Origin: a phage
Length of the DNA: 64,000 nucleotides
NCBI GenBank assembly: GCA_024614665.1
Contig: GCA_024614665.1_4861.1
Reading direction: 5' to 3' (one strand)
Part shown: in pieces, positions 46,421 through 46,912 of the stretch
Position numbering within the stretch: the first letter of the stretch is position 1
How the letters are laid out: each line of letters begins with the position of its first letter
Position numbers and translations under genes: made by a program
Notes under the pieces: model-generated
Database searches by the model: none
Told to the model about the DNA's origin: nothing
Seen by the model: only the letters and a program-made list of their open reading frames with translations

Positions 46421-46912
46421 ATGAAACGTCTATTTATCGTATTCGCGATTATAAACCTGTTGGCCGGTTGTGTTCAGTCGCCAAGCAACATAGGGCAATT
46501 TAGCGCCACACCGGTAAAGAATCACGACTTGGTGATTTATACATGCACAGGGACGCAGGAGAAGTTTGTAGACTACCGTCCGGTTCTGGACAACCTACAA
46601 ATGATGCCGCGGTCAGTAACAGTATTGGATGTGGGTGCAAACTGGGTAGCAACGTGGGACGGCGGCAAACTAGAGTCGCCGATGATGTTTAAAGACATGA
46701 TCGGCAAAATCGACGGGAATGTTAACACCACCACGGGCGAGCGTTATTACCGTATTAATAAAACCGTAAACGATGGCCCCACTTATTCTTTTTCGGATGT
46801 GAACCCGCATACCGGGGAAGGTAAAGGGATGACGTTCTTTCGCTGCAATGGCGGCCTTATTGACGAAGTTCCTACCCCGATTACGATTGTTCCGTTAGAA
46901 GAAAATAAATAG
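46421..46912 (+). CDS. lipoprotein (about 163 aa)
   Basis: ORF track 46364..46912; ATG (MKRLFIVFAIINLLAGC) with AAAGGA RBS; lipobox LAGC; followed by intrinsic terminator. Confidence 0.6.
   Translation: MKRLFIVFAIINLLAGCVQSPSNIGQFSATPVKNHDLVIYTCTGTQEKFVDYRPVLDNLQMMPRSVTVLDVGANWVATWDGGKLESPMMFKDMIGKIDGNVNTTTGERYYRINKTVNDGPTYSFSDVNPHTGEGKGMTFFRCNGGLIDEVPTPITIVPLEENK

What the first reader, a model, noticed from the sequence alone, without database searches (positions are those of the whole stretch)
46421..46912. Lipoprotein gene as a self-contained unit next to receptor-binding-protein candidates
A 163-aa lipoprotein (LLAGC lipobox) is the only plus-strand gene in this stretch. It has its own RBS and a strong terminator, and lies between the radical-SAM cluster and the lysis and family-A genes. 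From established knowledge, some phages encode lipoproteins that block their own receptor to prevent superinfection and premature inactivation of progeny.
Basis: inference. Interest (0 to 1): 0.4.

Follow-up and report, generated by a model that had tools for sequence, protein, structure and literature searches.

The report
Conserved jumbo-phage outer-membrane lipoprotein gene
This is a real, conserved gene of SPN3US-like giant Salmonella phages that makes a small barrel-shaped lipoprotein, probably sent to the host outer membrane; it may shield infected cells or new phages from phage attachment, but nothing tests that yet.

Summary
The window is an SPN3US-like jumbo phage (Seoulvirus). ORF 46421-46912(+) is the homologue of SPN3US gp159, annotated as hypothetical.

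**Observation: confirmed.**
- It has an SD site, a textbook signal peptide with lipobox (LLAG|C17), and a very stable terminator, which is bidirectional.
- The gene is under purifying selection (dN/dS 0.12-0.29).
- It occurs in 66 phage records, all enterobacterial chimalliviruses, and has no cellular homologues.
- All full-length homologues keep the lipobox. None has Asp at +2. C42 and C142 are invariant.
- AlphaFold (pLDDT 82) gives an all-beta domain whose best structural matches are small 8-stranded barrels, none of them close.
- gp159 is absent from the published SPN3US virion proteome, although its neighbours are virion proteins.

**Context.** In every lineage examined the gene sits in or at the edge of the DUF7941 fibre/adhesin gene array.

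**Interpretation: plausible, not shown.** A receptor-masking role like T5 Llp, Cor or Rtp45 fits the context, but several points count against it.
- There is no sequence or fold relationship to Llp or MliC.
- The protein does not co-vary with the adjacent Gp38-like adhesin.
- The reported SPN3US receptor is the flagellum.
- Proteomics places the neighbouring family in the head.

An o-spanin role is unlikely, because a better spanin-like pair lies at 4065-5069. Interest is modest.

The parts
46363..46368 (+). Conserved TATGAC box 58 nt upstream of the start codon. It is a candidate late-type (phiKZ-like 5'-TATG-3') promoter and start site for the phage non-virion RNA polymerase.
   Evidence: The same hexamer lies 58-67 nt upstream of the start codon in four diverged lineages where the gene is an opposite-strand unit: the window, Asesino, Kwan and L021. 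TATGAC occurs only 17 times on both strands of the 64-kb window. The phiKZ late promoter core TATG is described in PMC7598289. This is inference, not mapped.
46408..46414 (+). Shine-Dalgarno-like GAAAGGA, 6 nt before the ATG.
   Evidence: Read directly from the sequence.
46421..46912 (+). CDS of a 163-aa prolipoprotein, the homologue of SPN3US gp159 (SPN3US_0159 / ACQ60_gp107), family phrog_9559.
   Evidence: dN/dS is 0.12-0.29. 66 phage records encode it.
46421..46471 (+). Signal peptide (MKR plus a hydrophobic core) and lipobox L14-A15-G16-C17. Cys17 (46469-46471) is the predicted lipidated first residue of the mature protein. The +2 residue is Val.
   Evidence: Sequence. The lipobox Cys is conserved in all full-length homologues, and the +2 residue is V, A, S or K, never D. 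The hhalign matches to the MliC and Llp signal peptides cover only this segment.
46508..46855 (+). Folded all-beta (8-stranded-barrel-like) domain, residues about 30-145. It carries invariant C42 (46544-46546) and C142 (46844-46846), a presumed disulfide, and the invariant motifs D70-x-G72, R108-x-Y110-R111 and G132-x-G134.
46856..46909 (+). Low-confidence, Pro/Thr-rich C-terminal tail that varies in length and sequence between homologues.
   Evidence: pLDDT is 47-49 for the last two blocks. Alignment.
46915..46955 (.). Bidirectional intrinsic terminator: 13-bp G+C-rich stem, 5-nt loop, T-runs on both strands. It is shared with the convergent minus-strand operon.
   Evidence: One search detects it on both strands. 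One search gives -31.7 kcal/mol and z = -6.29.
45703..45726 (.). Second bidirectional terminator. It separates the plus-strand radical-SAM/DUF4376 block from the divergent pair formed by the gp160 homologue and the lipoprotein gene.
45766..46293 (-). Context: divergent neighbour, a 175-aa DUF7941 protein and homologue of SPN3US gp160, an abundant head protein.
   Evidence: Pfam DUF7941, E 9.5e-13. SPN3US gp160 is estimated at more than 300 copies per capsid and called 'Head'. dN/dS is 0.6-3.3.
47038..47553 (-). Context: convergent neighbour, a 171-aa protein resembling an M15-type peptidase or endolysin (gp158 homologue), a low-abundance virion protein.
   Evidence: phrog_894 'endolysin', E 2.8e-26, and a weak Peptidase_M15_3 match. 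Virion detection is reported in PMC5105663 and PMC5694885.
47563..48204 (-). Context: 213-aa DUF1353 protein (gp157 homologue). It or a protein like it neighbours the lipoprotein gene in the SPN3US-, Asesino-, Kwan-, L007-, L008- and L021-type loci.
   Evidence: Pfam DUF1353, E 1.2e-17.
48493..49146 (-). Context: endolysin with GH108 and PG_binding_3 domains (gp156 homologue).
49189..51366 (-). Context: 725-aa protein with a DUF7941 N-terminal domain and a Gp38-type adhesin domain (gp155 homologue).
   Evidence: Pfam DUF7941, E 3.2e-23, and GP38, E 4e-18. It is listed as a 'Head' virion protein in SPN3US.

Best explanation
**What it is (well supported, about 0.9).** This is a non-structural phage gene for a Sec/Lgt/LspA-type prolipoprotein.
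- After cleavage at LLAG|C17, the lipidated Cys tethers a disulfide-stabilised, roughly 115-residue all-beta barrel-like domain through a short flexible linker.
- Residue +2 is Val, and is never Asp in any homologue. In an enterobacterial host the Lol pathway should therefore deliver the protein to the outer membrane.
- The most likely location is the inner leaflet, facing the periplasm.

**Expression (inferred).** The gene forms its own transcription unit between two bidirectional terminators.
- It is probably read by the phage's non-virion RNA polymerase from a conserved TATGAC element 58 nt upstream.
- In Goslar-like relatives it is simply the next cistron after a fibre gene.
- Expression is therefore probably middle or late, together with virion genes.

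**What it does (inferred, about 0.3-0.35).** It acts on the host envelope as an exclusion or progeny-protection factor, by analogy with T5 Llp, Rtp45 and Cor.
- It would bind a conserved enterobacterial outer-membrane component from the periplasmic side.
- Infected cells and post-lysis debris would then no longer productively bind or trigger virions of this phage group.
- The target is unknown.
- The evidence is its fixed placement in the fibre/adhesin gene module, not any similarity to known exclusion proteins.
For: **Lipoprotein features.** Sequence. The lipobox Cys is conserved in all full-length homologues, +2 is never Asp, and C42/C142 are invariant.

**Real, constrained gene.**
- dN/dS is 0.12-0.29.
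- 66 phage records from Salmonella, E. coli and Erwinia chimalliviruses encode it.
- Only 13 hits were found among 1.84 billion cluster representatives, and every contig or record examined is phage-like.

**Non-virion.** gp159 has no row in the SPN3US virion mass-spectrometry tables, whereas gp155, 157, 158 and 160 do.

**Linkage to fibre/adhesin genes despite rearrangement.**
- In Goslar and L004 it follows a P1-gpS-like fibre gene and a Caudo_TAP chaperone gene.
- In L009 it follows a fibre gene and a DUF4376 gene.
- In L006 it lies between two DUF7941 fibre genes.
- In L005 it follows a 1375-aa protein.
- In L007 it ends a DUF7941 array.
- In SPN3US, Asesino, Kwan and L021 it is an opposite-strand insert between a small DUF7941 protein and the DUF1353/endolysin operon end.
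- Sources.

**Rate of change.** Its amino-acid divergence is the second highest among the nine genes compared (dN up to 0.034, against 0-0.018 for seven of the other eight).

**Late-type expression.** The conserved TATGAC box, gaps of 13-44 nt after fibre genes in Goslar-like loci, and no copy of the putative early-promoter motif upstream.
Against: - There is no homology to Llp or to any Pfam, NCBIfam or PADLOC model.
- There is no close structural match.
- The mature protein (146 aa, globular) is much larger than Llp (61 aa).
- It does not co-vary with the adjacent Gp38-like adhesin. JN03 lacks gp155 but its lipoprotein is 99.4% identical. Isolates from E. coli hosts differ no more than those from Salmonella.
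- The reported SPN3US receptor is the flagellum, not an outer-membrane protein.
- The DUF7941 paralogue family, gp155 and gp160 were assigned to the head from tailless-mutant proteomes, so 'next to RBPs' is itself uncertain.
- Conserved position could be inherited synteny within one phage family rather than functional coupling.
- Likely late expression fits progeny protection better than early exclusion.
- Localisation, lipidation and any phenotype are untested.
Confidence: 0.33

Rival explanations
1. It is a peptidoglycan-hydrolase inhibitor, an MliC/PliC/PhiA-like barrel that works like T4 Spackle. The periplasm-facing lipoprotein would bind and inhibit a virion-borne or endolytic cell-wall hydrolase. 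That would block wall penetration by superinfecting phages or lysis from without, or would time the phage's own endolysin.
For: - In most lineages the gene is convergent with, or adjacent to, the endolysin / DUF1353 / M15-like peptidase operon.
- gp158 and gp157 are low-abundance virion proteins.
- Foldseek on BFVD lists an RB49 'LprI-like lysozyme inhibitor' protein at E 1.1e-3.
- MliC is itself an outer-membrane lipoprotein (established knowledge).
Against: - hhalign against E. coli MliC (sequence validated against 2f09) aligns only the signal peptide.
- No member hits the Pfam MliC model or any other.
- The MliC motifs SxSGAxY and YxxxTKG are absent from the family consensus.
- Foldseek to P. 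aeruginosa MliC gives E 0.21 and TM 0.23-0.31.
- Goslar-like loci have no endolysin next to the gene.
- The M15-like gene is missing from the Asesino, Kwan and L008 loci.
Confidence: 0.1
2. It is the outer-membrane spanin subunit (o-spanin), or another lysis accessory, needed to disrupt the outer membrane at the end of infection.
For: - It is an outer-membrane-type lipoprotein.
- It lies about 1.6 kb from the GH108 endolysin, with a 30-aa single-TM peptide gene between that endolysin and the DUF1353 gene.
- It is probably expressed late.
- It has periplasmic cysteines.
Against: - There is no i-spanin partner. No adjacent, overlapping or embedding gene encodes a type-II membrane protein.
- The periplasmic part is a confidently folded globular barrel with about 7% Pro, unlike the short, Pro-rich, largely unstructured o-spanins (sequence).
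- It is on the opposite strand to the endolysin.
- The window holds a far better spanin-like pair. 4554-5069(-) has an N-terminal TM helix and a Pro-rich periplasmic part. It is followed after a 9-nt gap by 4065-4544(-), a lipobox protein with LLTG|C.
Confidence: 0.07
3. It is an envelope-remodelling factor with another target. Examples would be interference with flagellar basal-body or outer-membrane machinery to stop motility or flagellum-dependent adsorption, binding of a lipid or glycan ligand inside the barrel, or stabilising the outer membrane through the long jumbo-phage latent period.
For: - SPN3US is reported to use flagella.
- The family is 45-63% identical between Salmonella and Erwinia phages, which suggests a conserved host target.
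- It does not co-vary with adhesin content.
Against: There is no specific evidence for any such target. The structural matches are generic. The conserved position in the fibre module is left unexplained.
Confidence: 0.15

Closest known systems
T5 Llp (lytic conversion lipoprotein; PDB 8a60_B, 7qjf_A) and BF23 Llp
   Same: Both are phage-encoded, non-virion lipoproteins made by a virulent phage. Both are sorted to the outer membrane, have a mature domain with a conserved Cys pair, and form a separate small transcription unit placed against adhesin or structural genes.
   Different: There is no sequence similarity beyond the signal peptide, and Llp is not among the listed structural matches. The mature protein is 146 aa and barrel-like, against 61 aa for Llp. 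Llp is made shortly after infection (2026 bioRxiv abstract), whereas this gene looks late. Llp has a known target, FhuA; here the target is unknown and the reported receptor is the flagellum.
Rtp45 / Oekolampad SE lipoprotein (LptD-binding), and Cor of phi80/N15/T1 (FhuA)
   Same: These are small periplasm-facing outer-membrane lipoproteins encoded directly beside RBP or fibre genes. They are sequence-diverse between phage groups, and Rtp45 has one disulfide (PMC12685063). Goslar-type loci place this gene immediately after a fibre gene and its chaperone gene in the same way.
   Different: No similarity was detected: tblastn of the whole phage collection hits only chimalliviruses. This protein is larger and globular. 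No receptor link has been demonstrated.
MliC/PliC/PhiA lysozyme or peptidoglycan-hydrolase inhibitors, and (functionally) T4 Spackle
   Different: The family motifs and profile similarity are absent. The fold match is no better than to unrelated barrels.
Lambda Bor / Lom-type 'moron' envelope proteins
   Same: These are stand-alone units with their own promoter and terminator, inserted among late (lysis or tail-fibre) genes and encoding an outer-membrane protein (established knowledge).
   Different: Bor and Lom serve lysogens of temperate phages, whereas this phage group is virulent. There is no sequence similarity.
phrog_9559 (PHROGs v4, unknown function)
   Same: This protein is a full-length member of the family (E 5.9e-83).
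   Different: The family has no annotation or studied member.

Membership tests
Bacterial-type lipoprotein (Lgt/LspA/Lnt substrate) | N-terminal signal peptide with a positively charged n-region and a hydrophobic h-region | tested here: met
   The N-terminus is MKR followed by LFIVFAIINLLA. The mean hydropathy of the h-region is 2.65.
Bacterial-type lipoprotein (Lgt/LspA/Lnt substrate) | Lipobox [LVI][ASTVI][GAS]C at the end of the h-region, conserved in homologues | tested here: met
   L14-A15-G16-C17. The Cys is conserved in every full-length homologue. The only exception, P0023, is an N-terminally truncated gene call.
Bacterial-type lipoprotein (Lgt/LspA/Lnt substrate) | Outer-membrane sorting: no Asp at +2 (enterobacterial Lol-avoidance rule) | tested here: met
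   The +2 residue is V, A, S or K in all homologues. Actual localisation was not tested.
Bacterial-type lipoprotein (Lgt/LspA/Lnt substrate) | Actual diacylglyceryl modification and globomycin-sensitive processing | not testable with these tools
   Needs labelling or fractionation experiments.
T5 Llp family | Sequence or profile similarity of the mature domain | tested here: not met
   hhalign of A5 against Llp (sequence validated against 8a60_B) aligns 17 columns, all within the signal peptide.
T5 Llp family | Shared fold | tested here: not met
RBP-linked superinfection-exclusion lipoproteins (functional class: Llp, Cor, Rtp45) | Encoded next to the receptor-binding protein gene | tested here: inconclusive
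   The gene is always in or at the edge of the DUF7941/fibre/Gp38-like array. However, SPN3US proteomics assigns that family to the head, and the lipoprotein does not co-vary with gp155.
RBP-linked superinfection-exclusion lipoproteins (functional class: Llp, Cor, Rtp45) | Binds the terminal receptor and blocks adsorption or DNA entry | not testable with these tools
   Needs adsorption, efficiency-of-plating and pull-down experiments.
o-spanin (Rz1-like) | Gene embedded in, overlapping or directly following an i-spanin gene (type-II inner-membrane protein) | tested here: not met
   The neighbours are gp160 (DUF7941) and gp158 (M15-like), neither with a TM helix, and both on the opposite strand.
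o-spanin (Rz1-like) | Short, Pro-rich, largely unstructured periplasmic segment | tested here: not met
   The domain is a confidently folded beta structure (pLDDT above 90 over most of residues 31-140), with 10 Pro in 146 residues.
MliC/PliC lysozyme inhibitors (Pfam PF09864) | Profile match and the SxSGAxY and YxxxTKG motifs | tested here: not met
   None of the 18 members matches the Pfam model at E up to 5. hhalign aligns only the signal peptide. The motifs are absent from the consensus.
MliC/PliC lysozyme inhibitors (Pfam PF09864) | Eight-stranded beta-barrel lipoprotein | tested here: inconclusive
phrog_9559 | Full-length HMM match | tested here: met
   E 5.9e-83, residues 3-163 against profile positions 6-166 of 166.

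The most novel reading that the evidence does not exclude
The protein founds a new structural class of envelope-acting exclusion or progeny-protection factor. This class would be a roughly 115-residue disulfide-locked beta-barrel lipoprotein specific to nucleus-forming jumbo phages of Enterobacterales. It would dock from the periplasm onto a conserved outer-membrane machine that these phages need for the irreversible step of infection. Finding its partner would then reveal the still unknown terminal receptor or entry portal of SPN3US- and Goslar-type phages.
Probability: 0.22. Interest if true: 0.55.

Novelty: new variant of a known kind. Interest (0 to 1): 0.35.

Why it matters
SPN3US- and Goslar-type phages are model nucleus-forming jumbo phages and candidates for biocontrol. 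How they recognise and enter cells beyond flagellar contact is poorly known.

A conserved, non-virion outer-membrane lipoprotein encoded inside the fibre/adhesin module offers a cheap experimental handle.
- If it masks a receptor, its binding partner identifies that receptor.
- It would also explain any resistance of infected cells and debris to re-adsorption, which matters for phage cocktails and production yields.

If it has no such effect, the finding is just one more uncharacterised accessory gene.

Tried and rejected
**Family and domain searches that found nothing.**
1. Pfam, NCBIfam and PADLOC scans of the protein and of 18 homologues gave nothing beyond the lipid-attachment-site model at E 0.18.
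2. A sequence-profile search of the PDB gave nothing below E 0.66.

**Structure.**
3. The first AlphaFold run, with 5 close sequences, was unusable (pLDDT 34.9). It worked only after distant homologues from the 1.84-billion-representative search were added.
4. The AFDB50 fold library was unavailable. PDB Foldseek had no hit below E 0.079.

**Known families tested directly.**
5. Homology to T5 Llp and to E. coli MliC was tested by hhalign and rejected. Only the signal peptides align.
6. The o-spanin reading was rejected. There is no i-spanin partner, the domain is globular, and a better candidate pair exists at 4065-5069.

**Tests of a specific partner gene.**
7. I tested whether Goslar gp087 (213 aa, directly downstream of the lipoprotein gene) is a diverged DUF1353 partner. 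It shows no similarity.
8. I tested whether the Goslar-type TM protein plus partner pair (gp085/gp084) exists in this window. It does not.
9. Co-variation with the adjacent Gp38-like adhesin was rejected (JN03).

**Expression timing.**
10. A sigma-70-type promoter scan was no better than shuffles (4 sites found against 3.3 expected).
11. The putative early-promoter motif AGATAGATATTAT has no copy upstream of the gene.
12. The time-course proteome paper that would give expression timing (Weintraub 2019, PMC6384053) is not held.

**More genomic contexts.**
13. The IMG/VR scan added only two new loci, both with SPN3US-like synteny.
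Full report
**Identity of the window and the gene.**
- Region 45700-48300 is 95-98% identical to 35 phage records. These are Salmonella phage SPN3US and its relatives (genus Seoulvirus, nucleus-forming jumbo phages of about 240 kb).
- The flagged ORF corresponds to SPN3US_0159 / ACQ60_gp107, annotated 'hypothetical protein' in every record.

**Checking the observation.**
- The CDS 46421-46912(+) encodes 163 aa beginning MKRLFIVFAIINLLAG|CVQS.
- GAAAGGA lies 6 nt before the ATG.
- An in-frame ATG at 46364 (giving 182 aa, used in the JN03 and SaP7 annotations) has no SD. In Asesino and L021 the corresponding ATG runs into a stop, so 46421 is the start.
- A 13-bp G+C-rich hairpin at 46915-46945 is followed by a T-run. 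It folds at -31.7 kcal/mol (z = -6.3).
- That hairpin is scored as a terminator on both strands, so it also ends the convergent minus-strand operon. A second bidirectional terminator lies at 45703-45726.
- The gene is the only plus-strand gene from 45766 to the window end, but the block 25858-45685 upstream is on the plus strand too.
  - radical-SAM genes upstream;
  - on the minus strand, an M15-like peptidase (47038-47553), a DUF1353 protein (47563-48204) and a GH108/PG_binding_3 endolysin (48493-49146);
  - a 725-aa DUF7941 + Gp38-adhesin protein (49189-51366), followed by a long DUF7941 array.

**Is it a real, functional gene?**
- tblastn finds it in 66 phage records, all chimalliviruses of Salmonella, E. 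coli and Erwinia. These include Seoulvirus, Erskinevirus (Asesino, phiEaH2), Wellingtonvirus (Kwan), the Machina/Huxley group and Goslarvirus.
- An exhaustive HMMER scan of 1.84 billion cluster representatives returns only 13 proteins. Profile searches add a handful more.
- Every contig or record examined is phage-like. No cellular homologue was found.
- Against seven close genomes dN/dS is 0.12-0.29, which indicates purifying selection.
- Its amino-acid divergence (dN up to 0.034) is second only to gp160 among the nine genes compared.
- Across 17-18 homologues down to 22% identity, the invariant positions are C42, G72, R108, Y110, R111, S125, G132, G134 and C142.
- The lipobox Cys is present in every full-length sequence, and the +2 residue is never Asp.
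- By the established enterobacterial rules this indicates a lipoprotein sorted by Lol to the outer membrane, with a disulfide formed in the periplasm. That is inference, not tested.

**Structure.**
- With five close sequences AlphaFold failed (pLDDT 35).
- With 18 sequences it gave a confident model: mean pLDDT 82, with most of residues 31-140 above 90. It has a helical signal peptide, a flexible linker, ten beta-strands and a disordered Pro/Thr-rich tail.
  - Cap15, OmpW, nitrobindin and YceI;
  - the NHBA, TbpB, fHbp and HpuA lipoprotein barrels;
  - Brucella PhiA.
- Foldseek on the PDB has no hit below E 0.079.
- In BFVD only the family's own members match strongly. A few other phage proteins, some annotated as lipoproteins, match weakly.
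- The fold is therefore a generic small barrel with no informative close relative.

**Not a virion protein.**
- The SPN3US virion mass-spectrometry tables (PMC5694885 supplement) list gp155, gp157, gp158 and gp160 but have no gp159 row. The only '159' strings are the 159.1-kDa mass of gp241.
- The same work assigns gp155, gp157, gp160 and the 20-member 'paralog family B' to the head, because they persist in a tailless mutant. That family includes gp138-154, which on map position correspond to the DUF7941 array here.
- This weakens the premise that the neighbours are tail receptor-binding proteins. Against that, gp155 carries a Gp38-type adhesin domain, and Goslar-type DUF7941 proteins carry P1-gpS-like fibre domains.

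**Genomic context across lineages.** Three arrangements occur.
- (i) SPN3US, Asesino/phiEaH2, Kwan, L021 and L022: an opposite-strand unit between one or two small DUF7941 proteins and the end of the [M15-like]-DUF1353-endolysin operon.
- (ii) L007: the last gene of a DUF7941 array, convergent with M15-like and DUF1353 genes. L008 is also convergent with DUF1353 and the endolysin, but its upstream side is cut by the contig end.
- (iii) Goslar, L004, L009, L005 and L006 (about 25-32% identity): the gene is co-directional and packed 16-88 nt behind a large fibre gene or its chaperone (Caudo_TAP or DUF4376), or lies between two DUF7941 fibre genes.

The constant feature is membership of the fibre/adhesin module. 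The endolysin and the M15-like gene are not constant neighbours. This recurrence despite rearrangement is the main argument for a functional link. Shared ancestry of one phage family is the main caveat.

**Expression.**
- A putative early-promoter motif, AGATAGATATTAT with up to 2 mismatches, marks five intergenic sites on the minus strand in the left third of the window. It is absent upstream of this gene.
- The motif is AT-rich, as described for jumbo-phage virion RNA polymerase promoters in PMC7598289.
- The hexamer TATGAC lies 58-67 nt upstream of the start codon in the window, Asesino, Kwan and L021, within otherwise poorly conserved spacers. It occurs only 17 times on both strands of the window.
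- It contains the TATG core of phiKZ late promoters.
- Together with the operon arrangement in Goslar-type phages, this suggests middle or late transcription by the non-virion polymerase. That is inference; no transcript data were available.

- *Llp.* The T5 Llp sequence was validated against PDB 8a60_B. hhalign aligns only the signal peptide, and Llp is not among the listed fold matches.
- *MliC.* The E. coli sequence was validated against 2f09. Again only the signal peptide aligns. No Pfam MliC hit occurs in any member, and the family motifs are absent.
- *o-spanin.* There is no i-spanin partner and the domain is globular, not Pro-rich. A much better spanin-like pair lies at 4554-5069 and 4065-4544.
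- *Defence-system models.* None match.

What remains is context plus topology. The gene encodes an outer-membrane-directed, non-virion lipoprotein and is embedded in the adhesin module of a virulent phage. That is the signature of the known superinfection-exclusion lipoproteins (Llp on FhuA, Rtp45 on LptD, Cor). These are unrelated in sequence to one another and act from the periplasmic face (PMC9586334 and PMC12685063).

The counter-evidence is:
- the reported receptor is the flagellum;
- there is no co-variation with gp155, since JN03 lacks it yet has a 99.4% identical lipoprotein;
- the neighbour family is assigned to the head;
- the protein is twice the size of known examples.

The rivals are a peptidoglycan-hydrolase inhibitor (about 0.1), a different envelope target or ligand (about 0.15) and a spanin or lysis accessory (about 0.07). 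The remainder is unassigned.

**Verdict.**
- It is not a member of the Llp, MliC or spanin families.
- It may work like an exclusion lipoprotein, which would make it a new structural variant of a known kind.
- Interest is modest (0.35). The idea is plausible, easy to test and useful for receptor discovery in model jumbo phages, but not surprising and currently unsupported by any phenotype.

Noticed in passing
window 4065-5069 (- strand): This looks like an unannotated two-component spanin pair. 4554-5069 (171 aa) has one N-terminal TM helix (VTLVIVALIAFSAFVSYAYIV) followed by a charged stretch and then a Pro-rich stretch. After a 9-nt gap comes 4065-4544 (159 aa), with a textbook lipobox (LLTG|C) and a Pro-rich start to the mature part. 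Both belong to 'unknown function' PHROGs (8719, 8165). They are 'hypothetical' or 'virion structural protein 21' in all 37 related records.
   Followed up: partly
window 45766-46293 (- strand): The divergent neighbour is the homologue of SPN3US gp160, a 175-aa DUF7941 protein reported at more than 300 copies per capsid. It shows dN/dS of 0.6-3.3 against seven close genomes, for example 22 non-synonymous against 3-4 synonymous differences. All other genes compared are at or below 0.3. This suggests diversifying selection on an exposed capsid-surface protein.
   Followed up: partly
window 984-996, 10074-10086, 17010-17022, 18830-18842, 22598-22610 (all - strand, intergenic): The AT-rich motif AGATAGATATTAT recurs, with up to 2 mismatches, upstream of minus-strand gene blocks in the left third of the window. 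It is a candidate early promoter for the virion RNA polymerase of this phage group. As a 3-mismatch pattern it is not enriched over shuffles, but the five best matches are all intergenic and co-oriented with the downstream genes.
   Followed up: partly
window 48205-48495 (- strand): Two tiny ORFs lie between the endolysin and the DUF1353 gene. One is a 36-aa ORF whose ATG overlaps the endolysin stop (ATGA). The other is a 30-aa ORF, MQYDNDDWPKGLIPILLGLMALTMLVRYMT, with a single hydrophobic helix. The second is annotated in some relatives (SPLA3, SaP7, SPFM4), and similar small ORFs sit at the same place in Asesino and Kwan. It could be a membrane-active lysis accessory.
   Followed up: no
L013 (Salmonella phage JN03) 6808-8361 versus window 48493-51366: JN03 lacks the 725-aa DUF7941 + Gp38-adhesin gene (gp155 homologue) that follows the endolysin in the window and in SPN3US. 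A 298-aa 'virion structural protein 16' follows instead, and the JN03 endolysin is the most diverged of the set (dS 0.37). The adhesin repertoire is therefore mosaic within the genus.
   Followed up: partly
Published proteomics of a tailless mutant places that family in the head. Yet members carry adhesin or fibre C-terminal domains (Gp38 here; P1-gpS-like, DUF285 and TIM-barrel domains in Goslar-type loci). This raises the possibility of head-borne fibres in a flagellotropic phage.
   Followed up: partly
L010 (Goslar) 12977-13930; L005 8644-9534; L006 10368-11258: Goslar-type loci carry a conserved pair at the end of the fibre array: a protein of about 188 aa with a central hydrophobic segment of about 30-35 residues (roughly residues 94-128), followed by a protein of 104-124 aa. 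In L005 the pair comes directly after the lipoprotein gene. There is no homologue in this window, and the function is unknown.
   Followed up: partly
window 46361-46370 (+) and 5173-5182 (- strand): The 10-mer AATATGACAG upstream of the lipoprotein gene recurs 113 nt upstream of the candidate i-spanin gene. About 0.12 such matches are expected by chance in the window, so this may or may not reflect a shared promoter type.
   Followed up: no
Database records LR5359xx (SPFM1, 5-10, 12, 14, 15, 20): Several SPFM phage records match this region only as 27-32 short pieces. They yield frameshifted 'proteins' of 166-172 aa (P0005-P0009) that match the query in many short stretches (8 each for the two listed). 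These look like low-quality, indel-rich assemblies rather than biological variants.
   Followed up: no
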